This document shows positions 1 through 47,170 of a stretch of 64,000 nt of DNA, piece after piece. This DNA comes from a virus. Location: positions 1-64,000 of the IMG/VR virus record IMGVR_UViG_3300028840_004626; one strand, 5' to 3'. The translations under genes and the position numbers were made by a program. How positions within the stretch are numbered: position 1 is the stretch's first letter; every line of letters starts with the position of its first letter. Below the pieces are notes generated by a model. The model saw only the letters and a list, made by a program, of their open reading frames with translations, was not told where the DNA came from and did not search any database.

Positions 1-285
1 TCTCTTCAGGATACTCCTGGGTCTATGAATCCAATCTCAGCATACGTTCTCGCTGCCCAGAGCGTCCTCCAGCTGCTTAAAATGGGTGAGGTGGTGCTCG
101 TACACTGTCAAGCTGGAATAAGCCGTTCTACGGCCATCTGCTGCCTCGTACTGGCTATCCTGCATGGACGTACTCTTCAAGAGGCTTTCAACCATATTTC
201 TTCCATTCGGCCGGGTGTTTATATCATGACACACCATTTACCCCTACTCAGACCATCACTTGACCTTCTTAGGGAACTGTTCTAA
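1..285 (+). CDS. Dual-specificity / tyrosine protein phosphatase (5'-truncated by window edge)
   Basis: Catalytic VHCQAGISRS (HCx5R) motif, followed by a typical DSP C-terminus (AFNHISSIRP); frame is open from base 1 (SLQDTPGS..., likely the general-acid Asp loop). Confidence 0.85.
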   Translation, partial: SLQDTPGSMNPISAYVLAAQSVLQLLKMGEVVLVHCQAGISRSTAICCLVLAILHGRTLQEAFNHISSIRPGVYIMTHHLPLLRPSLDLLRELF

Positions 286-1577: not shown

Positions 1578-1972
1578 TGGATCCACACGAGAAGGAAGCA
1601 AAAAGTAAAATCGCGGAAATTAAGGCGCGAGAAGAACAAGAAAAACGAGGATGGGGAAGAATTTATAGAATAAGTCCACAGATTTGGGCACAGTACAGGA
1701 AGAATATCGAGTACGTAGGTACGCGAGGAAATAATCTCGACCTGTTGGCGCACAAGATTGTAGTGACGCACGGGGCTAAGCCCTACATTATCCCACCCTC
1801 TCATCACTTTAGCTGTTATATTATCCAGGTTAATGCACCGTGTATCTATGTCCTCGCCAAATTTCCAGGAGAATGGGAAGGGTTTGAGCCGATTCCGTCA
1901 GATACGGGTGATGTAGAATTGATAGATCTCCTACCGATGAGCGAGATTAGGCCAGAGTTATACAATGAGTAA
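1577..1972 (+). CDS. Hypothetical protein (131 aa)
   Basis: Translationally coupled (TAATG) with GAGGAG RBS. Confidence 0.7.
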   Translation: MDPHEKEAKSKIAEIKAREEQEKRGWGRIYRISPQIWAQYRKNIEYVGTRGNNLDLLAHKIVVTHGAKPYIIPPSHHFSCYIIQVNAPCIYVLAKFPGEWEGFEPIPSDTGDVELIDLLPMSEIRPELYNE

Positions 1973-2255
1973 AAAAGAGAGATCGAAGCCCAATGAGCCC
2001 GTAGATTATGTTTTAGATGGCCTATGGGACTTGATCACGCGAATTAATACACACGACAAGAAACACCTCGGCAATAATATGCTAGAGAAGTATGATTACT
2101 TTGCCCGACATGGCAAACAGGGTCGAAATTGTACATATGGCCTGAAGGCCAAACAGATGTTTATGATTTACGATTGGCCCGATGTAAAAAAGCAATTGAA
2201 GAAGATTGTCGAATATATTAGGACAATCCCCGGAAGTGAGAATTTCGCCAAGTAG
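1965..2255 (+). CDS. Hypothetical protein (96 aa)
   Basis: Overlapping operon-style arrangement. Confidence 0.65.
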   Translation: MSKKERSKPNEPVDYVLDGLWDLITRINTHDKKHLGNNMLEKYDYFARHGKQGRNCTYGLKAKQMFMIYDWPDVKKQLKKIVEYIRTIPGSENFAK

Positions 2256-2259
2256 TGAA

Positions 2260-2442
2260 GTGTCACAAGCAATCGAAGATGCACTAGTAGCTCTAAGACA
2301 GGTAATGGAAGAAAATGAGAAGAGCAGGTATAGCCAGATATTCTACGAGCACGAACAGCGCAGACTGGCTGCCATCAGACAGGTTGGCGAGCAGTGTATC
2401 TTTTTGTTCGCATATCAAGGAGTTATAGATGTTGGCGTATGA
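2260..2442 (+). CDS. Small protein with shared C-terminal tag (cassette member A); start uncertain (2206/2236/2260)
   Basis: Ends in YEHEQRRLAAIRQVGEQCIFLF, which aligns without gaps to the three downstream ORFs. Confidence 0.65.
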   Translation: MSQAIEDALVALRQVMEENEKSRYSQIFYEHEQRRLAAIRQVGEQCIFLFAYQGVIDVGV

Positions 2443-2872
2443 TGTGTCAGAACCAAGGACGAACCAACCAGAGGAAGAGGGTTGGGAACGGGGGTATGGG
2501 TTCGAGTATAGGCTGACGTATCCGGTTCAGCCAGCAGCGGGGAGCTATACGATTACCTACTCGAATGGGACGAGAGAATATACACAAGAAGAATGGGCAG
2601 AAATGTCTAGACAAAGACAGCCGGAACAGATTTACTATCTCTACCCACATCCCACAGATGGATATATCCGAGATGAGCACACTGGGCTTAATATGGTTGG
2701 TGATCAGTGGACAGAAGAACAACTCACCGAGATGGATCAGAGGTTCATAGAGAGATATGGGAGGAGTAATCCACATTTACATTTTCCAACCTATATCGAA
2801 GTACAGAGAGAGATGAATAAGAAAATGAAAAAGGGTAGACAGCTTGTCTTTGCCTTTATAAGAGAACTATAG
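2429..2872 (+). CDS. Small protein with shared C-terminal tag (cassette member B)
   Basis: AGGAG RBS; C-terminal YIEVQREMNKKMKKGRQLVFAF. Confidence 0.75.
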   Translation: MLAYDVSEPRTNQPEEEGWERGYGFEYRLTYPVQPAAGSYTITYSNGTREYTQEEWAEMSRQRQPEQIYYLYPHPTDGYIRDEHTGLNMVGDQWTEEQLTEMDQRFIERYGRSNPHLHFPTYIEVQREMNKKMKKGRQLVFAFIREL

Positions 2873-2879
2873 GAGATTT

Positions 2880-3236
2880 ATGCCATTAGAGCCAGCCTAC
2901 AGAGATAACTATTTAGTGGTAGGTAGTGGATACATTCAGTCAGAGGTTCCGACGCTAGAGAGTATTGGCGAGCGTGATTTCATACTGGAGACTGTTGTCT
3001 CATCTGGTGTCATCTATTACGATGATATGAATGATTGGCTAAATCCGAATTTCCGAACGGTTAGCAGCGCTGAGATTTGGATACCAGCACACGGAGATAT
3101 TGTACACGGTAGTGGAACGTTCTATGGCGTGAATAGAAGGAAAGAGCCTAGCTATCTAGAATTACAGAGAAAGATGAATAAAAAGACTAGAAAAGGGAGG
3201 CAGCTAAGGTTATATTTGGGGGAAGAGAGTGCCTAA
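2880..3236 (+). CDS. Small protein with shared C-terminal tag (cassette member C)
   Basis: AGGAG RBS; C-terminal YLELQRKMNKKTRKGRQLRLYL. Confidence 0.75.
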   Translation: MPLEPAYRDNYLVVGSGYIQSEVPTLESIGERDFILETVVSSGVIYYDDMNDWLNPNFRTVSSAEIWIPAHGDIVHGSGTFYGVNRRKEPSYLELQRKMNKKTRKGRQLRLYLGEESA

Positions 3237-3693
3237 TTACGAAGATACTCCACAACCTCAGCGACCCTGTGTGTTGCTCCGTAATGAAACTGGTGGACTA
3301 GAACGATTTTTCGCAGATGACGATGGGGTTATTCGTGTGCCTCCTGGCAACTGGGAGACAATGCAGGCAGAATATAGTATTCCAGAGGATGTTCGAGTGA
3401 TTTCGGGTAGCGGCATCAACGAAACAGTCATACAGGACTATAGAGAGGAAGTAGAGCTCGAAGAGGCGATCCGGGATGCATTCAATAGGATCGTTCAGGC
3501 ACCAGCGCGTCCGAATACACTATTTCTGCATCCAAGCGTAGCAAGAGAGTTGAATTTATTGAGTGATGAGCGGAGAGCATTGAAGTATGCAAGAAAACAG
3601 CGTAAGATAGGAAAGAGAATGGAAGTGGGAAAGCAGATCCCGTTTTTATTTATTACCCGACCCCAAAGTGCACGGGAGTTGGCGATCACTTAA
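3229..3693 (+). CDS. Small protein with capsid-like peptide and shared C-terminal tag (cassette member D)
   Basis: IRDAFNRIVQAPARPNTLFLHP matches the MCP segment; C-terminal YARKQRKIGKRMEVGKQIPFLF. Confidence 0.75.
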   Translation: MPNYEDTPQPQRPCVLLRNETGGLERFFADDDGVIRVPPGNWETMQAEYSIPEDVRVISGSGINETVIQDYREEVELEEAIRDAFNRIVQAPARPNTLFLHPSVARELNLLSDERRALKYARKQRKIGKRMEVGKQIPFLFITRPQSARELAIT

Positions 3694-3705
3694 GTGGGGA
3701 AGTAC

Positions 3706-4569
3706 ATGTCTGAAGAAAACACTACTGATAAATTAATGAAGCTCAACGGAAGCATAATTAAGTCTGATGGAAGCCACGTAAAGTCTGATTTTTTCAAGTT
3801 TCTTGAGATCAATCTAGATGATTACTCAGATATTGAGTACACCCCAGAAGAGGCCCAGAAGATTCGCTCTCATATGTCTCATCTCTCAACGGGGGCTACA
3901 GCCGTATTGCCCCTCAAGTGTGCGGGGCCTGTTCGCTGCCCATTTGCTGCAAGGTGTCCATTCGTAAAGATAGATAAAGAAAGAAAGAAAAAAGACCCTA
4001 ATGCGAAACAGATGACCCCGGTGACCAAGGATTGCTTAGTGGAGATTAATCTGTTGAACGAGTGGACTAGATTGTATGTAATGGAGTTTGATGTCCCCGA
4101 GAAGAGCTTTTTAGAGCTAATGATGTGTAGAGAGCTGGCAGAGATCGAAGTGATGCTTTGGCGGCTCAACAACAATTTGTCCAAAGAAGGAAATGCAAAT
4201 CTGGTAGACAATGTGGTGATGGGCGTAGATAAAGAGGGCAACCCATTGATGCGCCTAGAGAAGAGCGCTTTCCTAGCAGCAAAAGAGCAACTGACCAATA
4301 GGAAGTCAAAAATCATAAAGGCGATGGTTGGAGATCGACAGGAGAAGTACAAGAAGGAAGCAGCATTGAAGATCAGGGAAGAGAAAGATCCGAGTGTATC
4401 TTCTGCTAAGTTGCGCGGCGAAATCAATCGTCTGCTGAAACAGGCGGAAAGCAAGGTGTTGGCGCTGAAGGAGAGCGAAGGGGATGTCATCGATATCACG
4501 ATGGATCAAATGGACAAGGAGAAGACCGTAACGCCAGAGTCGATAATTGACGAAGTGTCTGAGGAGTAG
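3706..4569 (+). CDS. Cys-cluster protein, putative terminase small subunit
   Basis: CAGPVRCPFAARCP...CLVE Zn-type cluster followed by a helix-hairpin-helix oligomerisation-like region; first gene of the packaging/structural block, upstream of TerL. TerS role is inferred from position and architecture. Confidence 0.5.
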   Translation: MSEENTTDKLMKLNGSIIKSDGSHVKSDFFKFLEINLDDYSDIEYTPEEAQKIRSHMSHLSTGATAVLPLKCAGPVRCPFAARCPFVKIDKERKKKDPNAKQMTPVTKDCLVEINLLNEWTRLYVMEFDVPEKSFLELMMCRELAEIEVMLWRLNNNLSKEGNANLVDNVVMGVDKEGNPLMRLEKSAFLAAKEQLTNRKSKIIKAMVGDRQEKYKKEAALKIREEKDPSVSSAKLRGEINRLLKQAESKVLALKESEGDVIDITMDQMDKEKTVTPESIIDEVSEE

Positions 4570-4577
4570 TGAGTTAG

Positions 4578-7500
4578 TTGCCAATTCGGGATTTCCTGAA
4601 TCTTTCTCAAATCCGACAAGCGACAAGCCCTGACGAATTGCTGAAACGTTTGCAGCTTGGGGCTCAGGCACTTTCTGTACAATTTAGCGAAGAATTCGAG
4701 CCGGAATGGCGCGAACGTGCTGGCAAGTGGGGTATTAGCTACAATCCTAATACTCGAGTACTTAGCGCACCAACCTGGGCCATCCGGTCTAATTTCGAAA
4801 GCCCAGAGGCCATAAAAGAATTATGGGGAGGGCAGAGGCCTGGCGCCGACCGGATTACTCGCTTAGCGCGCGCAGTACAAGCACACGAATTAGCTGAAGC
4901 TTTTTATCTAGAACAATACGGCGCTACTCATCCTCGATTTAGCTCGCATGTGGCGCGTGATGTTATTCGAGCTGAAATAGGCGTAGCCGCGCAGATGGGT
5001 AAGCAAACCCTGTTCGATATGTTGAAATTCAGACAGGTTGAGCTGGATTATATGCAGCAGTCAGGAAGATTCAATCCATCGTTTAGCCCGCCGCGATTTA
5101 CAACATACAAGACAGACATGTTAAGGATCATGCAGGATGTTAGAAATTGGGCAGGAAAGCAATCTGGAACCACGTTTTCTCAACAGCAATTAGCCGAGCT
5201 AAACAAAAATATCATTAGCAATTTTTCTGATTTGCCTATTCACAGATATTACACATCGATGAGCAAAAGACGTATTGGTAAAATCGGGCTGGGAATGGCA
5301 GCAATAGCCGCTGGCTACTATTCTCTTTTTTCTGGATCGGACGATCAATCCAATGTTGTTCAGGGTATGCAGGAGGGCGGCTTTGCATCCCAACTCCGCA
5401 AGCTTGAAACAGACTTTGGTAGCGGATATCAGGGACAAGAGGGCCCATCGTCTTCAACAGCCACCAATATGGCTTTTGGTGCAGTGTTGGGTGGAGCGGC
5501 AGGATTTGGAATGTCTCGTATGCAGGCTCAGGCCATTATCGAAGAAGACCTGAGTGCATATCCTAGATTGCAGGAATTAAGAAAGATGGGCGCCCGTGGG
5601 GGGTTCGCTCTATATGCGCCCGAGTTTACGGAAATTCAGCAAATTCGTAAGCGTATGCCATGGTGGTCTAGGCTCGATCCACAAATGTACAATCCTATTG
5701 AGGCAATGAAGATCCTAAAGACGCCCGAAGAGTTGTTGAGATTTAAGGGTGTTGCCTATCTACATGAACCCCCGAATTTTTCAGAAGAGATTTGGAAACA
5801 GGCGCTTCGATCTAAAAACATCCTGGGTATGTTTGAACCCGAAGTGGGCACAAACAAGTTAGCAACCTATGAGTGGCTGTCTGAACGCCTGGGTGGAGAC
5901 CAGCTCGCATCTCGAATTCATCCACATACGGTTGGATTTGATCGCTTACCTATTGTGCCATCGGCTCATAGGTCTACCCTATTGGCGGAAATTAAAAAAC
6001 TCAATCAGGAATGGCCCCTCATCATAAAACATGCCGAGGGATCTTTACAGAAAGATGTTTATCTAAATGTGGCAAATATTCCCGATGAGGCTCTCGATGA
6101 CATGCTGAAAAACCCCAAAGACTGGGTTGCACAAGCTAAGCTAGATCTTGCGGATGAATTTCGTGTTGTGACAGTAGGGGACAAGCCGGTTTTCACAGTA
6201 CATCGCTGGGGAACCGAAAGAATGAAGCCTTTTACGGAATTTGCCAAGAAGATTCCTGGCCTAGGTCGAGTTCTGGAAGCCAATCGTTTTCCAGAGAACC
6301 TTTTCGGCGTTAGAGACGAAGAACTACGTGGTCGTCTTGAAACTTTCGCAAGCAAGGTATCGAAGCAGCTACCATATGAGGTTGGCGCATTTGACATTGG
6401 ACTTACTACCGAGGGGCAGTTAAAAGTCATTGAGGCCCAGAGATACTTTGGAACAATTAGAAATCCACTAGTTATTGAGCGCATGACCCAGACTCTTACC
6501 GGAGGCCCTTCGTTTTATGGTCGATTAGCTCGGGGTATGGGTGCTGTAGGTGCAGGCATTCTCGTTGGGGCCGGGATGGCAGCACTATTGAGTAGTGATA
6601 CGAATACTGCTGAAATTACCTCAGATCCAAAATTTATTCTGGCCGAAAATAAGAATTTCGATGGGTTTTGGGAAGATGGTATTGCGGCGCAACTTCGCAA
6701 GGCAAATACCCCCTTTGGTTCTGGCGTTAATCAATTTAAAGTATTGCGCGGATTAGTGCGTGGAGCACTGCAGCAATCCAAGGGCGCTGGGCAGAAAATT
6801 AGACAAAAGATTATAGAGAGAGTTGTCACACCCTTTAAAGAAGGTATGCGCGAGAGCATGGGGGCCCCCGCAACTTTTGAAGAAGCGCTACGTCGCGGCA
6901 AGCAAGTGTCTGTTCTTGGCGAAGGTCTGTATGCGGAATCATCTCTTATGAGAACGGTGTTCCAAGGTCAAGAATATCAGTATGTTCGTAAAAGATTGTT
7001 GCCAGATGCTCGTAAACGAGTCGAGGAAATGATTCGTAATCCTAGGGGACGCTATGAGCCCGGGGCCACAGATCTGATGGGTCGTGCAGAGGTTCCGCTT
7101 GAAACATGGCGCAGGTATCTGCGGGGACTGAACCTGGAGACCGAGGCCAATGTAATGCGGCGCATTGAGGACCTCAATATCGCCCCTAAAGTCTATGCCT
7201 CGTCTCGTCGCGAAATATTTATGGAATATATTCCTCATAAAACCCTTGGTAAGGCGATTATGGATGGTGATGACGTTACCCAGGGAATTATGCAGATTCG
7301 CAAGGCTATGGGGCGTCTATCAGAAGAACATAAAATTTGGAACCTAGACCCAACAGAATTTAACATCATGTTTGACCCCAAAAATAAAAAAGCCTTCTGG
7401 TTGGATTGGGGTTTGGCTGAAAGATATGCAAGATATGGGTTTAAGGCACCTCAGGCAACTACGCGGATGCATCAGGTATTTGGCACGTATCTTAAAAGAG

Positions 7501-7859
7501 CTAGAGGGCGCGTTGTATCTAAATCGGCTGCCACAGTTGTTCCTTCTGGCGGGGCTACTGTGGGAGCTGTTCCGGCTGCCCGTACTCAAGCTACAGTTGA
7601 CCTGATGGGGCCAACACAACGTCTTGAGGGGGCAACTGTGCGCGCCATGCCAGTGGGCGAAAACACGGCAGCGCGAGAAGCAGCCGCATTAGCTAAAACT
7701 GTACGTCGCGCAGAAGCATTTCGTGGACACCAGGCAGCTCTATGGGATGCGGCACATAATGGCGGGCAAAAACATACTACTTCGTATGCCAGAAGATTGG
7801 CGCAAGCCCGCGATCCTTTAGGACAAATGCATGATCCGCTTGGGGTAACCAAGAGATAA
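4578..7859 (+). CDS. Polyvalent multi-enzyme protein: HExxE domain + RimK-like ATP-grasp + RIO/Bud32-like protein kinase, separated by repeated linkers
   Basis: HELAE..SSH..E; ATP-grasp motifs NKLATY, PLIIKHAEGS, WVAQ, EFRV, FDI, KVIEAQ; kinase motifs LGEGLYA, VRK, E(alphaC), APKVY, FMEYI, NLDPTEFNI, LDWGLA; two QLRKxxTxFGSG linkers. Confidence 0.8.
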   Translation: MPIRDFLNLSQIRQATSPDELLKRLQLGAQALSVQFSEEFEPEWRERAGKWGISYNPNTRVLSAPTWAIRSNFESPEAIKELWGGQRPGADRITRLARAVQAHELAEAFYLEQYGATHPRFSSHVARDVIRAEIGVAAQMGKQTLFDMLKFRQVELDYMQQSGRFNPSFSPPRFTTYKTDMLRIMQDVRNWAGKQSGTTFSQQQLAELNKNIISNFSDLPIHRYYTSMSKRRIGKIGLGMAAIAAGYYSLFSGSDDQSNVVQGMQEGGFASQLRKLETDFGSGYQGQEGPSSSTATNMAFGAVLGGAAGFGMSRMQAQAIIEEDLSAYPRLQELRKMGARGGFALYAPEFTEIQQIRKRMPWWSRLDPQMYNPIEAMKILKTPEELLRFKGVAYLHEPPNFSEEIWKQALRSKNILGMFEPEVGTNKLATYEWLSERLGGDQLASRIHPHTVGFDRLPIVPSAHRSTLLAEIKKLNQEWPLIIKHAEGSLQKDVYLNVANIPDEALDDMLKNPKDWVAQAKLDLADEFRVVTVGDKPVFTVHRWGTERMKPFTEFAKKIPGLGRVLEANRFPENLFGVRDEELRGRLETFASKVSKQLPYEVGAFDIGLTTEGQLKVIEAQRYFGTIRNPLVIERMTQTLTGGPSFYGRLARGMGAVGAGILVGAGMAALLSSDTNTAEITSDPKFILAENKNFDGFWEDGIAAQLRKANTPFGSGVNQFKVLRGLVRGALQQSKGAGQKIRQKIIERVVTPFKEGMRESMGAPATFEEALRRGKQVSVLGEGLYAESSLMRTVFQGQEYQYVRKRLLPDARKRVEEMIRNPRGRYEPGATDLMGRAEVPLETWRRYLRGLNLETEANVMRRIEDLNIAPKVYASSRREIFMEYIPHKTLGKAIMDGDDVTQGIMQIRKAMGRLSEEHKIWNLDPTEFNIMFDPKNKKAFWLDWGLAERYARYGFKAPQATTRMHQVFGTYLKRARGRVVSKSAATVVPSGGATVGAVPAARTQATVDLMGPTQRLEGATVRAMPVGENTAAREAAALAKTVRRAEAFRGHQAALWDAAHNGGQKHTTSYARRLAQARDPLGQMHDPLGVTKR

Positions 7860-9487: not shown

Positions 9488-11509
9488 ATGTCGATTAACC
9501 TCAATCAATGCACATCCGAGTGTAGTAGTTGTATTCGTAGATATATTTCCAAACATCGCCTCAAAAGAGGCGATTCCTTTGATATACCCTGTCACGGTAT
9601 TCCTCTCGAATATTTGCCAGCAGATGTCCGCTCTAGCGTGAGCGGAGATCCAGAACTGGCTATTTCTATGATTGATGCTGTTACGTGGGCTGGTAAATTT
9701 TTAGATTGGCATTGTTATGATCCGATAGGAGAACACTGGAAGCGCAAAAGCTTAGAAGGAAGTATGCCAACTGGCTTAGCACAATACGAAGAGGGGGTGG
9801 CACTAGCAGGGAAATCTGTTTTTAATCGGCCCTATCAGGGAGAGATGCTTAGATGTTCGGCAAAATATAAAGTTTTTCGTATTGGGCGGCAAGCGGGCAA
9901 AACAGAAGTGCTGTGTGTTTCGGTTTTACACAATGTTTTTACTCACAAAAATTTTCGTTGCGTAATTATTGCCCCTTATGATTCTCAGGTTGAGTTGATT
10001 TTTGAACGTTTGCGCACCTTTATTGATAACAATGCAATGTTAAGTAATTCAGTGCGGCGCAAGGTTAAAAAACCTACTCATCAAATTGAATTGCATAATG
10101 GTTCTATTATTATCGGTTTTACAGCCGGTACTAAGTCGAAGCAAGAAGCTGGAGCTTCTCGTGGACAACCTGCACACATGTTGGTATTTGACGAGGCAGA
10201 TTACTTATCTGCTGGCGACTTGAATGCTGCCTTAGCTACCATCACAAACTTTCCCGAAGCAACTGTATGGATGTCATCTACTCCAGCCGGTAAACGAGAA
10301 AAGTTCTTTGAATCATGTCGCGACCCGATGTATCGCGAATTTCATTTTCCATCTCAGATTAACCCGAATTGGACAGAAGAAAGAGAGAGATTCTTTAGAA
10401 GTCAATTGACAGAAGACGGATATAAACATGAAATTCTAGCTGAGTTTGGGGAACAAGAAGAAGGGGTTTATCAGAACAAGTATATTGAATTGGCTCAAGA
10501 TGATTATGACTACGGCGACTATAAGCCCAATCCAAACTGGATTTATATGATGGGGGTTGACTGGAACGACGTCAAGATCGGCACAACTTTAGCCGTAGTT
10601 GGATTTGAGCCTGCTTCTGGCTTATTTCGTTTAGTTGACAAAGTCGTTATGACTCGATCTGAGCGTACCCAATTGTCTGCATGCCAAAAGGTAGCCGAAT
10701 TAAACAGGTTTTGGAATCCAACAATGATTTATGTAGATAAGGGATTTGGCACGACACAGATTGAGGTATTGCAGAAGTTCGGTTACGACTCTCTTGCTGG
10801 CGAAGGAGCAAATTCTCCTAATGCTAGATTGCGTAATATCGTTAAGGGATATGACTTTGGTGGTTCTATTGAAATACGAGATCTGTTCACCAAGCAGCCG
10901 ATTTCTAAAAAGGCGAAGCCATTTCTGATTGAGAATTCGGTGCGTCGTTTTGAACAGCTTACATTTAAGTATCCATCGTCAGATGAGTTATTTACAAAAG
11001 CTCTCCAGGGCTATATAGTTAAAAGGATTACAACTACAGGAGTTCCTGTTTATGAGATGCAGGACGAATCTGTTGGAGATCACTTCCTGGATGCGGTAAA
11101 CTTAGCTCTTGTAGCTTTTACTTTAGAGAAGTCAGCATTTGGGGCTCCGAAGCACGAGGCGCGTATTTCATTTTCTGCTGAGATTGGAGCTATACTTAGG
11201 GGAGACAAAGATCCACGCAAAGCATTGCAAGAAAAAGAAGCTCATCGCCCTAAGATGGGGCGTGCCGCAGCCGTAGAGGGTGGATCGGATAGACTAGTGG
11301 TTCCGGAACATGGCGAATTGCCAATGAATACTGCATCTGTTGATGGGGCCAGGGGGCCAGTAAAGCTATGGTCTTGGCCGGGTTTTGGCAGGGATGCTCC
11401 TAGGCCTAGAGTTAGAAGCCTAAGGGAAGCAATGTCAGATGCATCACAGCGGCTTAATAGACAACCTTCTCGCAGGGGTTCATCCCGTCCGAGGAGAAAA
11501 AATATTTAA
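9488..11509 (+). CDS. terL: Terminase large subunit
   Basis: RPYQ Q-motif, Walker A GRQAGKT, Walker B MLVFDEAD, motif III SSTP, nuclease GVDWN...VDKG...DHFLDA. Confidence 0.95.
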   Translation: MSINLNQCTSECSSCIRRYISKHRLKRGDSFDIPCHGIPLEYLPADVRSSVSGDPELAISMIDAVTWAGKFLDWHCYDPIGEHWKRKSLEGSMPTGLAQYEEGVALAGKSVFNRPYQGEMLRCSAKYKVFRIGRQAGKTEVLCVSVLHNVFTHKNFRCVIIAPYDSQVELIFERLRTFIDNNAMLSNSVRRKVKKPTHQIELHNGSIIIGFTAGTKSKQEAGASRGQPAHMLVFDEADYLSAGDLNAALATITNFPEATVWMSSTPAGKREKFFESCRDPMYREFHFPSQINPNWTEERERFFRSQLTEDGYKHEILAEFGEQEEGVYQNKYIELAQDDYDYGDYKPNPNWIYMMGVDWNDVKIGTTLAVVGFEPASGLFRLVDKVVMTRSERTQLSACQKVAELNRFWNPTMIYVDKGFGTTQIEVLQKFGYDSLAGEGANSPNARLRNIVKGYDFGGSIEIRDLFTKQPISKKAKPFLIENSVRRFEQLTFKYPSSDELFTKALQGYIVKRITTTGVPVYEMQDESVGDHFLDAVNLALVAFTLEKSAFGAPKHEARISFSAEIGAILRGDKDPRKALQEKEAHRPKMGRAAAVEGGSDRLVVPEHGELPMNTASVDGARGPVKLWSWPGFGRDAPRPRVRSLREAMSDASQRLNRQPSRRGSSRPRRKNI

Positions 11510-12684: not shown

Positions 12685-14219
12685 TGGAAATTAAGCGCGT
12701 TGTTAAAACACAGAGTCAGTTGCGCAGAGAACTACATGTTCAAAGCCTTGATGACCTCAAGAATGTTGATATCAACGCTGTTCTTGCGGTTGACCCAGAG
12801 CGTACCGACCTAGGAACAAAATTTCCTGATTGCGCATTAATTGCACGCACTTATGAGCGTGGAGCCCACTTTACACCTACCGAAGCGGCTGTTTTTGCCC
12901 CGTTCAATAGACATATCGAAAATCACAAGATTATGAGTCAGTCTGTTGCTAAGATGCTGAGCACCTACATGTTTAATCCAGAAGATATTGTATCTTCGGA
13001 TGTGCAGAAGCTTGCTGCCAAGGCGGGAATCGAGGTGCCCGGAGGTGCTGATTCGGGAACTGGCGGCAAGACAGACGAAGATCTTCAGTCTCTTAATATC
13101 GGCAAGGAGCAGCACTCGACCAAAAATACCGACAAAGGCGGCGGTGGCAGCAATGCCTTTATGGATTGGCTAAGTGAGTGTATTCCTTGCGATTTACGTC
13201 TTGGGGCATGGATAGAATTTAATCCAAATCTTGATTTGCTTGGTATGCTAGAAAACTTTTTAATGGAGGCTCTCAAGTTTTTGACGGGCATCGGTAATAT
13301 TTTGAGTAACCTAGATCTGTTTGGTGATTTCTGTAAACTCTTAGATCTATTGTCTTTTATGTGTATTCCTGACTTACAGCGTATTATTATGTTGTTTATT
13401 TCTCTTCTTACCCTCGAGGCTCCGAATCTAGATTTCTTAATTGGATTCTTGATGTCCCTAGTGGGCCCGTTATTTAGTGCTATTTTTAGTGGCATCATTG
13501 GGCTCTTTGATCAATTCGTACTGCTTGTTGTTAATCCACTAGATTGCATTGTGGATGCTATCAATCAGCAGTTGGCTAAGTTGCCACATGATCCCACTCA
13601 GCCACCACCACAAATTGGCAAAGATAGCATTTTAGCAGAGACTGCTGCAGGATTAGATAACGCATTACGTACACTTAAGCGCACTCTTGAGGGCGGAATT
13701 GCCACAATCAAAGAAAAACTCGATATGTATCTGGGTGAATTTAAGGCCCTTCTGGGCGAAGTTGGCGGTGGAGATTTTAACTATTTGGTGAAAACTTTCG
13801 AAAAATTAACCATGGTGCGCTTGATTGGTTTTATTATTGCCTTGATTTTGGCTTTAACGAAAGGAGATGTGCAGTGTTCCGGAGGTAAAGCCGAAAAACG
13901 GGAAATTGATGCTTTCTTTGAGAACTATCTAAGTCCTAATGGAGCTTTTGATATTTCTATGGATGATGAGGGGAATATCAACATTTCTGAAAGAGTTCCA
14001 GAACAGGCTGATACGCTAGCATCGATTCCTCAGGCCTTGTCAAATATCGAAAATGTGTTTGAATTTGAGGGGGAGGATGTTATCGTTACCGATGCCATCC
14101 GAGACACTGTATCCGCTCTAATTGAACCAGTTAGAGTGAAGACACCATGCAGGTTAGAGGTTTCTGCTGATGAGGCAGACAAGGTCAATCAATATATTTC
14201 GGAACTGAATATGACATGA
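12684..14219 (+). CDS. Helical, Cys-containing, partly hydrophobic protein (putative virion protein)
   Basis: 511-aa coupled ORF between TerL and portal; CIPCDLR/MCIPDL motifs and hydrophobic helices. Confidence 0.7.
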   Translation: MEIKRVVKTQSQLRRELHVQSLDDLKNVDINAVLAVDPERTDLGTKFPDCALIARTYERGAHFTPTEAAVFAPFNRHIENHKIMSQSVAKMLSTYMFNPEDIVSSDVQKLAAKAGIEVPGGADSGTGGKTDEDLQSLNIGKEQHSTKNTDKGGGGSNAFMDWLSECIPCDLRLGAWIEFNPNLDLLGMLENFLMEALKFLTGIGNILSNLDLFGDFCKLLDLLSFMCIPDLQRIIMLFISLLTLEAPNLDFLIGFLMSLVGPLFSAIFSGIIGLFDQFVLLVVNPLDCIVDAINQQLAKLPHDPTQPPPQIGKDSILAETAAGLDNALRTLKRTLEGGIATIKEKLDMYLGEFKALLGEVGGGDFNYLVKTFEKLTMVRLIGFIIALILALTKGDVQCSGGKAEKREIDAFFENYLSPNGAFDISMDDEGNINISERVPEQADTLASIPQALSNIENVFEFEGEDVIVTDAIRDTVSALIEPVRVKTPCRLEVSADEADKVNQYISELNMT

Positions 14220-19053: not shown

Positions 19054-20457
19054 ATGTCTTTCAACGCTGAGAATCAATATTCTGCAAGCCACAAGGTGTG
19101 GGATCACGTAGGTAATATTATCCCTGACATTGAACATTCAGAGGGCGAACGTCCAGCTTATGAGTTTAAGCCTGCTGAATGGCTTCCGGTGCAGTTTTAC
19201 GACAAGCACTATGAAGTATGGCAGTCGGTAATGCCTGGTAAGGTTGTTGCCTTAGATCCTGATGGTCGTGTAATGCCCGCTCAGTACGGTCTTACTGGCC
19301 AAAGTGTTGTGTATGTGCAGAATGATATTGACGCTGGTGTGACCGATATTGCAACCGGTCTTGCAGTTACCACTGCGAAAACTGTTGTGCTCACGCAGCT
19401 CAACGGTACTCGTGGTAGTGCTTGGACGCGTGCAGTAGCCGGTACGGCTGGTGTAAATAATACCTCGGGCTTTATGGGTAAGCATGGTATCGCCTTTAAC
19501 GATGCCAATGAGAAATTCCCTATTGGTATAGCCCCTTATGCCTACAATCAGTGGGCTGGCGGAGATGGCAGCAATCCTGCTAATCTGCGACATCACAATC
19601 ACATCCTGCAGCATCAGGTTGCAGTTCTTTGTGACTATGTAATTAAGCTTCCGTGGGTACCTGGTCAAGCAGCTACCGAGAGTGTCTCTGGCACGTTCTC
19701 GGGTGGGTTGCCGACTTTCGGAACCTCTGGAACCTATCGGCGTAATGCGATTCAGAACAACAGTACGGGTCGTTATAACGCTAGCACGGGTAGCAATCCG
19801 GTTCTCGGAACCTATCCTGTGATCGCTTTCTGTCTGGATGAGTTTCCTGTTGCCAAGAATACGGCGCGGACAACTGTTACCATGCAGAGCTCGAATGCCA
19901 ATGATGATGTCTCTGGCATTCTGGTGAACGAGCGCACTTCTTTGTCTGCGGTAACGCAATCAGGCGATTACTATGTGGACTATGAAGTTGGCATGCTGTT
20001 CATCTTTAGTTCGAACCAGACTGTACCGACCGCCATTTCTGGCGCTGCCGGCACCGTTTCGGTTACTTACTATCACTACGCTGGTGTGCCAGGCACAGTA
20101 AGTCGTTTTGCTTCTGTTGTCAGCACGAGCGTAGACCCTGGTGACTTTTTGGTATGCACCACGAATAGTAACCTGGTTGTCGACAATACTGCCGACTTCA
20201 AAAACATTGTTGGCCAGGTTCTTGCCGTGGATGACAATTTCCCTAAAGATGCCTTGGATCAGGTTCGTACTGCGTATGATCCGGCGATTAGTTCTAATTC
20301 GGCTGGTTCGATGGCTAATGCGACCCTGGGCTCAGCGAGTGCTAATCTTGGTCAATTAGATCAAATGCCGGGTTCGGCCACTGGTGGTTATCCAGATATT
20401 CTGCATTACTCCGGTGCAGCCGATAAATTAGTATTGGTGAACCTGGTAAGTCGATAG
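19054..20457 (+). CDS. Capsid-associated / head decoration protein
   Basis: Immediately upstream of the MCP, TAAGGAGG RBS, beta-rich; VMPGKVVALD and GDFL...IVGQVL decoration-like termini. Confidence 0.65.
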   Translation: MSFNAENQYSASHKVWDHVGNIIPDIEHSEGERPAYEFKPAEWLPVQFYDKHYEVWQSVMPGKVVALDPDGRVMPAQYGLTGQSVVYVQNDIDAGVTDIATGLAVTTAKTVVLTQLNGTRGSAWTRAVAGTAGVNNTSGFMGKHGIAFNDANEKFPIGIAPYAYNQWAGGDGSNPANLRHHNHILQHQVAVLCDYVIKLPWVPGQAATESVSGTFSGGLPTFGTSGTYRRNAIQNNSTGRYNASTGSNPVLGTYPVIAFCLDEFPVAKNTARTTVTMQSSNANDDVSGILVNERTSLSAVTQSGDYYVDYEVGMLFIFSSNQTVPTAISGAAGTVSVTYYHYAGVPGTVSRFASVVSTSVDPGDFLVCTTNSNLVVDNTADFKNIVGQVLAVDDNFPKDALDQVRTAYDPAISSNSAGSMANATLGSASANLGQLDQMPGSATGGYPDILHYSGAADKLVLVNLVSR

Positions 20458-20484: not shown

Positions 20485-21738
20485 ATGTCTAATCAAGTCG
20501 AAATTAAAGACGCAAGCGAGTTTCGTTGCCTTTGGGAAAACAATGGCCAGACTGGCGCAGGGGAAGTTAAGCTTCAGGACGCTCTTAGCGTGCCGAACGC
20601 TCATATGCTGTTCCCCAAAGTCATCTCGAACATTGTAAAAGAAGCCCAAGAGCCACTGCTCGTAGCAACGTCTCTGCTTCAACGGATCAATTTCAGCTTT
20701 GGCCAGACCATTACCTTCCCGGCGGTTGGTGCTCTGGTAGCGGCTGATATTGCCGAAGGTCAAGAGTATCCGGAACGCAGCCTCCAAATGGGTGGAGCGA
20801 CTGTGACGGCTACCATCGGTAAGAGCGGTATTGCCGTTCGCGTTACCGACGAAATGGTACGCTATTCGCAGTTTGACGTAATCGGTATGCATCTCCGTGC
20901 AGCCGGTCGCGCTCTTGCTCGCCACAAAGAGGTTAAGTGTTTCAACTATATCCGCTCAATGGGCGTAACGGCGTTTGATAACCTCAATCCGACTAGCTCT
21001 TTGTTCGGTGTTTGCACCGGTCGCGATCTTAATGGTGCGGCTAACGGTGCCGTAACCATGGACGACATTTTTGATGCTTTTGCACAAATTGTTACCCAGG
21101 GTTATATGCCTAATACTTTGCTTATGCACCCCCTCACCTGGACCATGTTCATTAAGGACGCTCAACTGCGTGCTTTTGTACAGGCCAATGGTGGCGGCGT
21201 GTTCTTCGCAAGTTGGACTGGCAATCCTGCTGGCAAGGCTCCTTGGAGCAATAGCTCGCAGGGTGGTCTTGGTGTGGCTTCTGGTCAGACCATTACCCCG
21301 GGACAGACTTCTGCTGGAGAGACAGCTCCCAGTGGCTTGGCTGCTTCCCAATCTGGTGACTATTCTCAGGTACAAACGGGCGCTCCGGTTCTCCCGAGCT
21401 ACATGAATGTTCCTTTCCGGATCATCGTGAGCCCGTTCGTAACCTTTGACGCTCGTCGCAAGCTTACGGACATTTATATGTTCGATAGCAGCGAACTTGG
21501 CGTTCTCGTCGTAGACGAGGAAGTCATGGTTGAAGAGTTCGACGATCCCAAGGTCGACATTCGGAAAATTAAGCTAAGAGAACGTTATGGTATCGGCATT
21601 CTGAACGAAGGCCAGGCTATTGCAGTTCTGCGGAACGTACACTGCGTGCCCAACGAAATTGCACTGCCTGCTCAAGCTAGTGTTGATGTCTCTGGTTCTA
21701 TTGCTAAGATTCCGCCTGGCAATGCCTTGAGTCTGTAG
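20485..21738 (+). CDS. Major capsid protein (HK97 fold)
   Basis: IAEGQEYPE, KSGIAVRVTDEMVRYSQFDVI..HLRAAGRALAR, PNTLLMHP, KLRERYG; strong RBS; followed by a terminator. Confidence 0.92.
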   Translation: MSNQVEIKDASEFRCLWENNGQTGAGEVKLQDALSVPNAHMLFPKVISNIVKEAQEPLLVATSLLQRINFSFGQTITFPAVGALVAADIAEGQEYPERSLQMGGATVTATIGKSGIAVRVTDEMVRYSQFDVIGMHLRAAGRALARHKEVKCFNYIRSMGVTAFDNLNPTSSLFGVCTGRDLNGAANGAVTMDDIFDAFAQIVTQGYMPNTLLMHPLTWTMFIKDAQLRAFVQANGGGVFFASWTGNPAGKAPWSNSSQGGLGVASGQTITPGQTSAGETAPSGLAASQSGDYSQVQTGAPVLPSYMNVPFRIIVSPFVTFDARRKLTDIYMFDSSELGVLVVDEEVMVEEFDDPKVDIRKIKLRERYGIGILNEGQAIAVLRNVHCVPNEIALPAQASVDVSGSIAKIPPGNALSL

Positions 21739-25692: not shown

Positions 25693-27579
25693 ATGTCGTT
25701 TGAAAATTTGCCTGGCATTTTTCCAAATTGGATTGATGGCAATCTGCAAATTGCATCCGTCAACGAGAATCCCGTAGTGTTGGTTCTCGGTACGTCTCCT
25801 CGGGGAGACACGGAAACGCTTTATAAGGTCAACAGTGTATCTGATGCAGCCCGTGTATTCGGGCGTAGCGATGGTACCCTGGTTCGTGGTCTTTATGAAG
25901 TTGTTGCCGGTGGAGCCGAGAATCTACGTTTATTGCGTGTGGGTGCAACGGCTGCTTCTTTGAGCAATGTTGGTGGCGGTATTACCATCACCACCGTATC
26001 GAAAGATTATGATTCTGGTACTGACTATAATGTATTCTGGGATGATGCAGCAGGTCGGTTGCGTGTATGGCGTGCGTCTGACGACGAACTCGTATACGAC
26101 AACAACCCGACGTATCCTTCTGCAGCAATAGATCTATATGAGGTATCTGTAACTGGATCAGCATCTGGAAATCCGGGGGATATTGGTACCCTGTCATCGC
26201 CGTTGACTCTCAAGGCGGCCCATGGTGTTAGTGGCGCTTCTTATAGTGCCGGCACCGATGGCATTACCTTGAGTCGCATGGAGCTTTTTGAAGCCCTGTA
26301 TCGTGCATATGTAGTATTACAGAATGAAGATCTAGATGTTGTTGTTCCTCGGAACGTATATTTAGATGATTCAAATGTAAAAGATATGACTACGGCACAG
26401 GTTGTGACGCTGAATACGAGTGCTCCATGGGCCCTCACGTCTGCTTATCCAGAACCCGGTTCGTCCTACGATGCTCTTGGCAAAGTATTTGCTCAAGAGT
26501 ATGAGGGCGAATGGTACTTCTGGTGGGATATGGATAATGACGGCGTAGCCGAAATTTTTCCTTCGGCCGGTTCGGCATCCGCATCAACGGATGCTAACGG
26601 TACGGCTCTTGAGGCTGCAGATTTTCACGAAGCTAACTTCGGCTATCAATTAGCGGATTTTTGCTACACTCAATCAGAAGATAACGCTGAGATGATCGGT
26701 GTTATCGGTATGTTGCCGCCAGCTAGCTGGGCTTTGAAGGATGTAAGTAATTGGATCGGTGAACTTCCAACTTATACGGAAGACTCTTCGGGCAACTCTG
26801 TAATCTCTGCTGCTGCCGATAATGGTTCGGGTCTACTTGGTAACAAGTGGATGGCGGGTCGTAAAGGCAATAGTAGCACTGGATTACCTGGCCATATCGT
26901 CAGCGGTATCGATGGACTTGCTTATGGTGGGTTTATCGCAACTGATAATGGTTGGCCAGATGGTTCTCAGCAAGAGGATCGCAATGAGCATCTGATCGAC
27001 ATTGGTAAGTATATCTCTGTCGTAGGTGCACAGGCGGTACTTGCCAATCCAACGAATCCAACTTCATATGCTGCTAGTGGCGCGTCTGTTTATGCCGGAT
27101 TGATCGCATCACTGCCGGCTAACAGTGCTCCAACCAACAAGCTCCAGCCCGGAGTCAGGCTTCCCTTTAGGATTAGCGTGGCCAAGCTGGATAGTCTTGC
27201 TGGATTGGGCTATGTAATGTTTCAACGTAAGACCAAGGGTATCGTCGTTGCTGACGCTCCGACGGCATCCCGCCCAGATAGCGATTATCAACGGTTGACC
27301 ACCGTACGTATTGTTAAGGCGACTATCGACGCAATACGTAATGTTGGCGACAAGTTTATTGGAGAACCGATTACTGGTGCGAGGCTTGCGGCTCTGGAGA
27401 CCGCAATTAATCAGTCCCTGGTGAAATTGCAGAAACTTGAGTTCCTGCAAAGATTCCAGGTTGCTGTAACCTCGACACCTACGCAGCAAGTACAGGGTAA
27501 AGCGGACGTCGAGATGATCCTCGTCCCGGCCTTTGAGCTGCGTCAAATCACCGTGTACGTGTCGCTCGCGGCACAATAG
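25693..27579 (+). CDS. Tail sheath protein
   Basis: N-terminal LPGIF, VLVLGTSPRG; C-terminal LTTVRIV..IRNVGDKFIGEP..VPAFELRQITVYV. Confidence 0.9.
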   Translation: MSFENLPGIFPNWIDGNLQIASVNENPVVLVLGTSPRGDTETLYKVNSVSDAARVFGRSDGTLVRGLYEVVAGGAENLRLLRVGATAASLSNVGGGITITTVSKDYDSGTDYNVFWDDAAGRLRVWRASDDELVYDNNPTYPSAAIDLYEVSVTGSASGNPGDIGTLSSPLTLKAAHGVSGASYSAGTDGITLSRMELFEALYRAYVVLQNEDLDVVVPRNVYLDDSNVKDMTTAQVVTLNTSAPWALTSAYPEPGSSYDALGKVFAQEYEGEWYFWWDMDNDGVAEIFPSAGSASASTDANGTALEAADFHEANFGYQLADFCYTQSEDNAEMIGVIGMLPPASWALKDVSNWIGELPTYTEDSSGNSVISAAADNGSGLLGNKWMAGRKGNSSTGLPGHIVSGIDGLAYGGFIATDNGWPDGSQQEDRNEHLIDIGKYISVVGAQAVLANPTNPTSYAASGASVYAGLIASLPANSAPTNKLQPGVRLPFRISVAKLDSLAGLGYVMFQRKTKGIVVADAPTASRPDSDYQRLTTVRIVKATIDAIRNVGDKFIGEPITGARLAALETAINQSLVKLQKLEFLQRFQVAVTSTPTQQVQGKADVEMILVPAFELRQITVYVSLAAQ

Positions 27580-27592
27580 GGAGGATAACTAG

Positions 27593-28303
27593 ATGCCTAC
27601 TCAGGGAAGTCCTTATGCAAGAAGTTATAACAGTTTCTCTGGCGTGGATATTAAGGCTGTCTTCGCTAACAAGGTGATTGGTGAACTCCAGGCCATCAGT
27701 TACTCCATTACTCGCGAAAAAGCACCGGTTTATACGATGGGCTCTTCAGATCCACGTTCTTTCTCTCGTGGAAAGCGCGGAATCGCTGGCACGCTCGTAT
27801 TTATCGTGTTTGTTTGCCATGTACTACTGTCAACGCTTGGTGGATACAGCACTGACGGTGGATTGAAGTTTCAGTCCGATATCGATGATATTAGACCGGA
27901 ATTTCGCGACCAGACAGAGGTCGGCGGAACCGTGGGTTCTGCAGGCGGGCTTTCGTCCGTATTGCAGGGAACCAGCGGAACCTCGGCTGCTGATACGATT
28001 GATAACCAAGAGAGTCCTCTCACTAGCGTGGGTTCGGACCAAGAAATTGCTACCGCATGGTATGCTGACCAAATCCCGCCCTTCGACGTGACTTTGGCAG
28101 CTGCTAACGAATACGGTGCTCTCGCTGTAATGCGTATCTTTGGCGTCGAGCTACTCAACGAAGGCTATGGCGTTTCGATTGATGATATCGTTTCGGAACA
28201 GCAACATACATATGTTGCCCGGACAATTATCGGTTGGACCCCAGTGCCGAGTGCTAACGCTGAGACCATTGCATCGCAGGGCGGAGTGAACACTAGTTCC
28301 TAG
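27593..28303 (+). CDS. Tail tube protein
   Basis: SFSGVDI, ELQAISYSITREKAPVYTMG..PRSFSRGKRGIAGTL, DQIPPFDVT, SIDDIVSE..YVAR; follows the sheath; followed by a terminator. Confidence 0.85.
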   Translation: MPTQGSPYARSYNSFSGVDIKAVFANKVIGELQAISYSITREKAPVYTMGSSDPRSFSRGKRGIAGTLVFIVFVCHVLLSTLGGYSTDGGLKFQSDIDDIRPEFRDQTEVGGTVGSAGGLSSVLQGTSGTSAADTIDNQESPLTSVGSDQEIATAWYADQIPPFDVTLAAANEYGALAVMRIFGVELLNEGYGVSIDDIVSEQQHTYVARTIIGWTPVPSANAETIASQGGVNTSS

Positions 28304-28328
28304 TGCTAACTCAGCAACAGTCTAGAAT

Positions 28329-28364
28329 AGCCCCCTGGGGATTGACCTGGGGGGCTTTTCTTTT
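28329..28364 (+). terminator. Rho-independent terminator after the tail tube gene
   Basis: AGCCCCCTGGG...CCTGGGGGGCT hairpin followed by TTTCTTTT. Confidence 0.85.
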
Positions 28365-28396
28365 AATATAGAAGAGGTAGCTTTTCCACATTTTAT

Positions 28397-28405
28397 TGCT
28401 ATCCT
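28397..28405 (+). promoter_or_regulatory. Putative extended -10 promoter (TGcTATCCT)
   Basis: Downstream of the terminator, upstream of the GGTGG RBS; recurring motif. Confidence 0.5.
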
Positions 28406-28421
28406 AAACTTGGTGGTGTAA

Positions 28422-29378: not shown

Positions 29379-29389
29379 GAGTGTCTTAA

Positions 29390-47169: not shown

Positions 47170-47170
47170 T

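What the first reader, a model, noticed from the sequence alone, without database searches (positions are those of the whole stretch)
3469..3534. Accessory protein carries a copy of the phage's own major-capsid peptide: possible capsid decoy
Seen: IRDAFNRIVQAPARPNTLFLHP (3469-3534) aligns without gaps to IFDAFAQIVTQGYMPNTLLMHP of the MCP (21067-21132), 12/22 identical. It sits just upstream of the shared C-terminal tag, in a 154-aa protein that otherwise does not resemble a capsid. Known: this helix-strand element belongs to the HK97-fold A-domain region, and some anti-phage systems (e.g. CapRel, Lit) are triggered by major capsid proteins. Inference: a captured capsid epitope acting as a decoy/sponge against capsid-sensing immunity, or a modulator of capsid assembly (own or competitor).
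Basis: partly seen in the sequence, partly recalled or inferred. Interest (0 to 1): 0.8.

Follow-up and report, generated by a model that had tools for sequence, protein, structure and literature searches.

The report
Accessory protein carrying a capsid-protein piece
A small optional gene of an uncultured marine-sediment jumbo-type phage keeps a roughly 35-residue piece descended from the phage's own major capsid protein. The piece is joined to a short tag shared with neighbouring mini-genes, a design no paper I found describes, and its purpose (immune decoy or assembly interference) is untested.

Summary
ORF154 (3229-3693) residues 81-102 match MCP residues 195-216 at 12/22 without gaps. Alone the match is borderline: pair E is 6e-5, but P is about 0.035 against the window's proteome and the DNA shows no likeness.

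Relatives settle it. Two related phages have a small gene in the same slot, between a ~90-aa gene and a 291-aa Cys-rich gene. It carries the same MCP piece and the same terminal tag. One matches MCP at 17/37 (E about 1e-8). The other was found by synteny alone. The family profile against the MCP profile gives hhalign 95%, E 2.7e-8, over MCP 189-222. Synonymous sites are saturated, so the likeness is held in the protein, not in the DNA or RNA.

Tagged mini-proteins elsewhere in this phage group carry pieces of other virion proteins. One in a relative's cassette has pieces of the tail-tube protein and a head-module protein. One in a more distant relative, outside any cassette, has the tail-tube N-terminus.

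ORF154 has no other homologues and is not an MCP-family member. Its function is unproven. I favour mimicry of an MCP surface to occupy a host capsid sensor (about 0.35) over assembly interference (about 0.25).

This scan has noted the same design (core-protein fragment plus shared tag) on other phage DNA with different tags.

The parts
3229..3693 (+). ORF154, the accessory protein (154 aa, GTG start overlapping the stop of the previous ORF, purine-rich RBS-like run just upstream)
   Evidence: The same 154-aa product is on record as P0001. No Pfam or PHROG family.
3451..3552 (+). MCP-like segment of ORF154 (residues 75-108).
   Evidence: hhalign of family alignment A4 against MCP alignment A2: 34 columns, Prob 95.2%, E 2.7e-8. 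Coordinates.
3580..3657 (+). C-terminal tag of ORF154: a basic stretch, then the core Q-I-P-F-L-F (3634-3651)
   Evidence: The tag core recurs at 2392-2409, 2840-2857 and 3201-3218.
2206..3236 (+). Three upstream cassette mates (2206-2442, 2429-2872, 2880-3236). Their bodies are unrelated, and each ends in the same kind of tag (QCIFLF, QLVFAF, QLRLYL).
1965..2255 (+). Left anchor gene of the variable slot (96 aa). Its homologue lies directly upstream of the 291-aa gene in distant relatives.
3694..4569 (+). Right anchor gene of the slot (291-aa Cys-rich protein, no known family), conserved at 40-60% identity in relatives
20485..21738 (+). Major capsid protein
   Evidence: PF25209 at 9e-20 and phrog_3922 at 2e-26. 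34% identical to the Bacillus phage 0305phi8-36 major head protein.
21049..21150 (+). The MCP segment (residues 189-222) that the accessory family resembles
   Evidence: At least one of the three family members matches 23 of the 37 positions of MCP 188-224.
19087..19134 (+). Residues 12-27 of the 467-aa head-module protein, copied in a tagged mini-protein of a relative (L069:2658-2705)
   Evidence: 12/16 identical. Ortholog profile: E 1e-4 in the 19-sequence set, 0.0026 in the blind scan of 459 small ORFs, 0/3000 shuffles.
27608..27670 (+). Residues 6-26 of the 236-aa tail-tube-type protein that follows the sheath gene, copied in the same relative's mini-protein (L069:2574-2636)
   Evidence: 13/21 identical, BLASTP E 7e-5, 0/3000 shuffles. 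Tube assignment.

Best explanation
SHOWN: ORF154 belongs to a tiny, fast-evolving family of accessory proteins. The family fills one variable slot at the head of the packaging and structural gene block in a sub-clade of 0305phi8-36-like phages. The members share only two things. One is a ~35-residue segment descended from the clade's own major capsid protein (MCP 189-222). The other is a short terminal tag (Q-x-E/h-F-x-F) that neighbouring, otherwise unrelated mini-proteins also carry. The likeness is held at the protein level while synonymous sites are saturated.

INFERRED (about 0.6): the segment works as a mimic of that MCP surface and competes with the MCP for something that binds it. By HK97-fold topology the segment is the helix-strand-helix that follows the spine helix, in the A-domain.

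MY COMMITMENT (about 0.35): the partner is a host immune sensor of capsid protein. The mini-protein would occupy the sensor without switching it on, and the shared tag would be a common handle for localisation, packaging or turnover. In relatives, tagged mini-proteins with tail-tube and head-protein pieces would do the same for other sensors.
For: - Relatives keep the piece in the same slot. L069:4150-4638 matches MCP at 17/37, 40.8 bits, pair E 9e-9. L082:333-581(-) was found by synteny only.
- The family profile against the MCP profile gives 95.2%, E 2.7e-8.
- The MCP ortholog profile hits the same region in all three proteins, with 0, 1 and 0 of 3000 shuffles reaching the real score.
- At least one member matches 23 of the 37 MCP positions.
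- The piece resembles this clade's MCP wording (MDDIFDAF, FAQIV), not that of distant MCPs.
- pS is 0.75-1.07 against pN 0.20-0.48, so DNA or RNA is not what carries the likeness.
- The gene is dispensable. Relatives with 55-77% MCP identity lack it, and the slot holds other genes or none. That fits an arms-race gene better than an assembly factor.
- One 98-aa tagged protein of a relative strings together a tail-tube N-terminal piece and a head-protein N-terminal piece. A blind scan of 459 small ORFs also found a 119-aa tube-piece protein in another relative, with 2 reversed-sequence hits in total, both at E above 0.015.
Against: - No partner is known and the host is unknown (sediment and seawater metagenomes).
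- A fragment that binds a sensor could just as well trigger it.
- No published precedent for a capsid-mimic decoy turned up in two literature searches and a November 2026 review.
- ORF154 is the least MCP-like member (12/22) and would not pass a blind scan on its own.
- The MCP segment is only moderately conserved within the MCP: 35% of windows of equal length are more conserved.
- The A-domain placement is by topology only, because both models failed.
- The family is known from three or four contigs of similar samples.
Confidence: 0.35

Rival explanations
1. Assembly interference or chaperoning. The MCP-like helix-strand-helix docks on MCP subunits, or on their scaffold or protease partner. 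It either holds the phage's own subunits back until assembly starts, or poisons capsomer formation of a co-infecting related phage. The tube and head-protein pieces would do the same for other assemblies.
For: - The gene sits directly upstream of the packaging and head genes on the same strand, with no terminator-like site between 1437 and 4654 on that strand.
- The pieces come from virion proteins, two of them from N-terminal stretches.
- From general knowledge, fragments of oligomeric proteins are classic dominant-negative inhibitors.
Against: - The gene is dispensable across close relatives that build the same capsid.
- One mini-protein mixes tail-tube and head pieces, although heads and tails assemble on separate pathways.
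- A competitor's MCP segment would be nearly identical to the phage's own, so self-poisoning would be hard to avoid.
Confidence: 0.25
2. The roles are reversed: the piece is the address and the tag is the business end. The MCP, tube or head-protein piece lets the mini-protein ride on or in assembling virions. The tag then acts, for example as a sliding-clamp-binding peptide or another hub-binding peptide, after delivery or at late times.
For: - The tag sits at the extreme N- or C-terminus: 8 terminal against 1 internal occurrence in L069's record, and 4 against 1 in G001.
- It is kept as a peptide, not as DNA.
- One window copy reads QLRLYL, which fits the bacterial clamp hexapeptide QLxLxL as I recall it.
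Against: - Most copies read Q-x-E-F-x-F, which is not the canonical clamp motif.
- No DnaN-type clamp is encoded in this record or in two complete relatives.
- Most tagged cassette mates show no virion-protein piece.
Confidence: 0.12
3. Relic. A fragment of the MCP gene was copied into a hyperplastic region by illegitimate recombination and survives in an ORF without any function tied to the MCP likeness.
For: The slot is a hot spot with different occupants in different lineages. The three members differ greatly in length and in their N-terminal parts.
Against: - The segment is retained in frame in three lineages after complete synonymous turnover, while the flanks diverged beyond recognition.
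- It always sits just before the tag.
- Similar pieces of other virion proteins occur in tagged mini-proteins of relatives.
Confidence: 0.08
4. Chance resemblance of a generic helix-loop-strand motif.
For: The ORF154-MCP pair alone is not significant after correction for all pairs in the window. There is no Pfam MCP hit. hhalign of ORF154 alone gives only 18%.
Against: - The syntenic homologues match the MCP much better (E about 1e-8) and in the same register.
- Reversed-sequence controls gave 2 weak hits against 51 real ones.
Confidence: 0.03

Closest known systems
Gol peptide of phage T4 major capsid protein gp23 (Gol / EF-Tu / Lit exclusion; from my own knowledge)
   Same: A short internal stretch of an MCP is by itself active towards a host defence protein.
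   Different: Gol is part of the capsid gene and triggers the defence. Here the piece is a separate, dispensable gene with a tag, from another region of the fold, and any effect on defence is untested.
T4 internal proteins IPI-IPIII with their capsid targeting sequence (from my own knowledge)
   Same: A hypervariable row of small, mutually unrelated proteins shares one short terminal peptide and lies next to head genes.
   Different: The T4 tag is N-terminal and is cut off by the prohead protease. Here the tag is C-terminal in the window and N-terminal in a relative, with an unrelated sequence. Packaging is unknown, and T4 internal proteins carry no capsid-protein pieces.
HK97-fold major capsid proteins (Pfam PF25209 Phage_capsid_4, PF05065)
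   Same: About 34 residues align with the helix-strand-helix that follows the spine helix.
   Different: ORF154 has no N-arm, E-loop, spine helix or P-domain, and no profile hit. It is not a capsid protein.
Satellite capsid-redirecting MCP homologues such as SaPIbov5 Ccm (from my own knowledge)
   Same: A non-essential gene derived from an MCP and used in a conflict.
   Different: Ccm is a whole HK97-fold protein that co-assembles with the capsid. ORF154 holds only a 35-residue piece.
Phage inhibitors that compete with a structural-protein trigger, such as DSAD1 against the tail-tube-activated DSR2 (from my own knowledge)
   Same: The proposed logic is the same: block a sensor of a virion protein.
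   Different: As far as I recall, DSAD1 is not a sequence copy of the tube protein. Here the likeness to the trigger is the defining feature, and inhibition is unproven.

Membership tests
HK97-fold major capsid protein (PF25209 / PF05065) | Whole-protein match to the family profile above its cut-off | tested here: not met
   ORF154 hits no Pfam or PHROG family at E up to 1, whereas the window MCP scores 72 bits on PF25209.
HK97-fold major capsid protein (PF25209 / PF05065) | E-loop, spine helix and P-domain segments present | tested here: not met
   Only MCP 189-222 aligns. Nothing else in ORF154 matches the MCP profile.
HK97-fold major capsid protein (PF25209 / PF05065) | A-domain helix-strand-helix segment | tested here: met
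   Family profile against MCP profile: 95.2%, E 2.7e-8. Naming the domain rests on fold topology, because no usable model was obtained.
T4-type internal proteins with a capsid targeting sequence | Short shared terminal peptide on otherwise unrelated small proteins in a variable locus | tested here: met
   There are four C-terminal copies in the window. L069 holds six N-terminal and two C-terminal copies. The motif is kept at the peptide level, not the DNA level.
T4-type internal proteins with a capsid targeting sequence | Tag at the N-terminus and removed by the prohead protease; protein present in virions | not testable with these tools
   The tag is C-terminal in the window. Cleavage and packaging need proteomics of virions of an uncultured phage.
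Beta-clamp-binding proteins (QL[SD]LF / QLxLxL motif) | Canonical motif at a terminus | tested here: inconclusive
   QLRLYL (3201-3218) fits. QLVFAF, QIPFLF, QCIFLF and the relatives' Q-x-E-F-x-F only approximate the motif.
Beta-clamp-binding proteins (QL[SD]LF / QLxLxL motif) | A clamp partner | tested here: not met
   PF00712 and PF02768 were not found in this record, in G001 or G016, or in two complete relatives. A host clamp cannot be tested because the host is unknown.
Known anti-defence protein families | Sequence membership in a described anti-defence family | not tested
   No anti-defence library was on hand. PHROGs gave nothing, and the full-database HMMER search gave only repeat-protein noise.

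The most novel reading that the evidence does not exclude
This phage lineage keeps a small library of tagged mini-proteins that display short pieces of its own virion proteins: capsid, tail tube and a head-module protein. They would act as decoys that blunt host pattern-recognition immunity (sensors of the Avs, CapRel or Thoeris type). The shared terminal tag would be the common handle that places or delivers them. If so, this is a separate instance, with a different tag, of a design this scan has also noted in unrelated huge phages.
Probability: 0.3. Interest if true: 0.9.

Novelty: categorically new. Interest (0 to 1): 0.72.

Why it matters
Bacterial immune sensors are now known to recognise conserved virion proteins: the capsid A-domain interface, the tail tube, the portal and others. 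No phage counter-measure that copies the trigger itself has been described in the papers I could search.

A selected, tagged mini-protein built around a piece of the phage's own capsid protein is a concrete candidate for such a counter-measure. The tagged mini-proteins with tube and head-protein pieces are further candidates. Alternatively they could be natural dominant-negative fragments used between phages.

Either way the idea becomes directly testable with short synthetic genes. It would also give a sequence-based way to find triggers and their mimics in uncultured phages. The shared tag points to an unknown common reader.

Tried and rejected
- **Homologue searches for ORF154.** The word-based search found only the protein itself. 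The full HMMER search of 1.84 billion representatives found only repetitive or TPR proteins. The phage collection gave nothing. Viral and metagenome contig scans with ORF154, the L069 protein and alignment A4 found no further members.
- **Structure.** The AlphaFold model of ORF154 (pLDDT 48.8) and that of the MCP with 26 sequences (pLDDT 33.6) are unusable, so no fold search was run.
- **Solved structures.** Searches with MCP profiles A2 and A5 found no solved relative covering the segment.
- **Complex prediction.** MCP (A6) with the mini-protein core (A4) gave no verdict.
- **Sequencing runs.** No RNA holder is listed. The holders are a sediment and a seawater metagenome.
- **ORF154 N-terminus against a tail-spike-like N-terminus (65616-67856).** The pair E is 4e-4, but a profile of the three paralogues gives E 0.88, so I rejected it as chance.
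- **RNA- or DNA-level copy, or donor cassettes for gene conversion.** Rejected: 45-65% nucleotide identity and saturated synonymous sites.
- **Tag as a DNA junction repeat.** Rejected, because synonymous positions vary.
- **Pieces taken from the most conserved parts of their parent proteins.** Only partly true, so not claimed.
- **Window cassette mates A to C.** They showed no convincing virion-protein pieces.
- **ESM Atlas.** All scores were below 0.9, so these are leads only.

Full report
**Setting.** The window is the first 64 kb of a 94.5-kb IMG/VR virus record, estimated about 50% complete. Nearly all genes lie on the + strand. The structural block comprises:
- a large terminase (9488-11509);
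- a portal (14216-16750);
- a 761-aa head-module protein;
- a 467-aa protein of no known family (19054-20457);
- the MCP (20485-21738; PF25209, phrog_3922);
- a sheath (25693-27579);
- three tube-type paralogues (27593, 28422, 29390).

The MCP is 32-36% identical to those of jumbo myoviruses: Bacillus phage 0305phi8-36, Moorella MTATph1 and Acinetobacter ME3. The DNA occurs in sediment and seawater metagenomes.

**The observation.** It is exactly as written. ORF154 (3229-3693) residues 81-102 match MCP residues 195-216 at 12/22 without gaps, 28.5 bits, pair E 6e-5. Taken alone this is borderline:
- against shuffles the pair P is about 5e-4;
- a shuffled ORF154 reaches the score against some window protein in 4 of 150 trials;
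- in the all-against-all of 48 ORFs about nine pairs score as high or higher;
- hhalign of ORF154 alone against an MCP alignment gives 18%;
- the DNA shows no copy, at 30/66 identity with only 3 of 12 identical residues on the same codon.

ORF154 has no family and no homologue by ordinary searches.

**What changed the picture.** Scanning viral contigs with the MCP returned 56 MCP loci. It also returned two hits to MCP residues 188-224 only (L068 and L069, the same sequence on two contigs). That hit lies in a small ORF (L069:4150-4638; called as 119 aa, P0128). The ORF sits directly upstream of the homologue of the window's 291-aa protein, which is exactly where ORF154 sits. It shares 17/37 residues with the MCP, including an exact eight-residue run, at 40.8 bits and pair E 9e-9. 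In some comparisons the match runs to 48 residues.

I then looked at the same slot in other relatives, without using any MCP likeness. G001 (128 kb, MCP 78% identical) has an 83-aa ORF there (L082:333-581 on the minus strand, P0129). It again has an MCP-like stretch, sharing FAQIV and MH, and ends in the tag.

The three cores (alignment A4) against 26 MCPs (A2) give hhalign 95.2%, E 2.7e-8, over MCP 189-222. An MCP profile built from about 40 orthologues hits the same region in all three proteins. Counts of shuffles reaching the real score are 0, 1 and 0 of 3000. Singly the members match 12, 17 and 10 of the 37 MCP positions. Together they match 23. The wording is that of this clade's MCP, not of distant MCPs. 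That fits one old capture from a clade MCP followed by divergence.

Synonymous sites are saturated (pS 0.75-1.07) while pN is 0.20-0.48. The alignments were chosen for their amino-acid likeness, so these numbers do not themselves prove homology. Given homology, they show that protein, not DNA or RNA, carries the likeness.

**Distribution.** Relatives with 55-77% MCP identity have nothing, or unrelated small genes, between the two anchor genes (window 1965-2255 and 3694-4569). So the slot is a hot spot, the gene is dispensable, and the family is confined to a sub-clade of three phages on four contigs. No further member was found in 5.8 billion proteins or in contig scans.

**The tag.**
- In the window, four consecutive small ORFs (2206-3693) end in a basic stretch followed by Q-h-x-F/L-x-F/L.
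- In L069, six small ORFs begin with M-Q-x-E-F/L-x-F, and two, including the ORF154 homologue, end with Q-L-E-F-x-F-V.
- In G001, three or four ORFs end with Q-Q-E-F/L-x-F.
- Occurrences are terminal far more often than internal in these genomes (8:1 and 4:1), and the motif is rare in the other relatives.
- Synonymous positions vary, so this is a peptide motif and not a junction repeat.

What reads the tag is unknown. It fits one copy well and the others loosely, and neither this record nor two complete relatives encode a DnaN-type clamp. A capsid-targeting role like that of the T4 internal-protein tag is an analogy I draw from memory only.

**Pieces of other virion proteins.** I searched the cassette proteins of three genomes against all large proteins and against ortholog profiles.
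- L069:2532-2828 (98 aa, N-terminal tag) carries two pieces. Residues 15-35 match residues 6-26 of the tube-type protein (13/21, E 7e-5). Residues 43-58 match residues 12-27 of the 467-aa head-module protein (12/16; profile E 1e-4). Both give 0/3000 shuffles.
- The tube-type protein lies directly after the sheath gene. It is the homologue of the 0305phi8-36 virion protein ORF140 and is annotated as a tail tube in phage KLEB27-3.
- L069:3811-4005 shows weaker likeness to MCP 118-136 and to the same tube N-terminus (P 0.003-0.006).
- In a blind scan of 19 structural profiles against 459 small ORFs from 11 related genomes, reversed sequences gave 2 hits, both at E above 0.015. The non-orthologous real hits below E 0.01 were the L069 MCP piece (1.7e-9), the L069 head-protein piece (0.0026), a 71-aa ORF in G016 (E 0.009, not followed up), and a 119-aa accessory protein in G016. 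The G016 119-aa protein has a tube-like N-terminus preceded by D-E-F-S-F (1.6e-4).
- ORF154 and the G001 protein do not pass this blind scan alone. Their case rests on synteny, shared register and the family profile.
- The window's own cassette mates show no convincing virion pieces. The exception is 2429-2872, which resembles residues 47-146 of the 1093-aa multi-domain protein.

**Interpretation.** Three things are shown. There is an MCP-derived piece. It is kept in a dispensable, fast-evolving, tagged accessory protein. Tagged mini-proteins in relatives carry pieces of other virion proteins. Function is inferred.

I favour mimicry that competes with the virion protein for a binder, and within that a host sensor (0.35). 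The reasons are:
- the gene is optional and turns over quickly;
- one mini-protein combines tail and head pieces, which is odd for an assembly factor but natural for a set of decoys;
- MCP A-domain interfaces and tail tubes are reported targets of Avs sensors.

Interference with assembly, of the phage's own particles or a rival's, is the main rival (0.25). A docking-handle reading, a relic and chance follow. Placing MCP 189-222 in the A-domain rests on its position after the E-loop motif and the long predicted helix (residues 129-158) and on known HK97 topology. No usable model or solved relative was obtained.

**Comparison with what is known.** ORF154 is not an MCP-family member, because it fails the profile and domain tests. 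It resembles the T4 internal proteins in locus logic, the T4 Gol peptide in being an active MCP piece, and trigger-competing inhibitors in the proposed logic, but it is a member of none of them. I found no paper describing phage genes that copy pieces of their own virion proteins.

Notes from this same scan report the same design in other, unrelated phages with different tags: e1-5647044, e1-5364951, e1-5784689, e1-5336094 and e1-5884774. Those are unchecked AI notes and I did not test them. If they hold, this window adds a separate lineage and a different tag.

**Verdict.** Interest 0.72.

Noticed in passing
L069:2532-2828 (+): A 98-aa mini-protein of a related phage starts with the tag (MQREFDFIW). 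It then carries a piece like residues 6-26 of the tail-tube-type protein and a piece like residues 12-27 of the 467-aa head-module protein.
   Followed up: yes
L069:2532-4826 (+): A row of eight small ORFs. Six start with M-Q-x-E-F/L-x-F-V/I-x-x-E/D (at 2532, about 2818, 3111, 3344, about 3546 and 3811). Two end with Q-L-E-F-x-F-V. So the tag is N-terminal here but C-terminal in the window.
   Followed up: partly
L130:13260-13619 (-) (= G016:C1:133260-133619): A 119-aa accessory protein lies far from the structural genes of a more distant relative. Its N-terminus copies the tube-type protein's N-terminus (profile E 1.6e-4) and is preceded by D-E-F-S-F.
   Followed up: partly
window 2429-2872 (+) and 4578-7859 (+): Cassette member 2429-2872 resembles residues 47-146 of the 1093-aa multi-domain protein over about 100 residues (24% identity, 0/3000 shuffles). 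The large protein has a weak ATP-grasp hit (PF18299).
   Followed up: partly
L075 and L081 (G001:C1:104930-106615, minus strand): In G001 the homologue of the 291-aa protein lies in one 593-aa open frame. An in-frame insertion of about 900 bp separates the parts matching residues 10-95 and 110-286. It could be an intein or an inserted domain.
   Followed up: no
window 1-285 (+): An ORF open at its 5' end carries an HCxxGxxRS motif typical of Cys-based (dual-specificity) protein phosphatases.
   Followed up: no
window 27593-30226 (+) and 46225-48139 (+): Three tube-type paralogues lie in a row after the sheath gene. PHROG 9206 labels the family 'major head protein', probably wrongly. Two adjacent proteins at 46225 and 47171 are 60% identical.
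   Followed up: no
L004:7270-7746 (+) and L082 reverse-complement 1255-1638: HNH or zinc-finger endonuclease-like ORFs lie near the variable slot in two relatives. This fits a recombination hot spot.
   Followed up: no
window 3229-3693 (ESM Atlas look-up): Among the low-scoring feature neighbours (0.78, chance level) is a cluster of 81-aa proteins in which 18% of members carry the SU10 MCP Pfam family. This hints that small MCP-piece proteins exist elsewhere.
   Followed up: no
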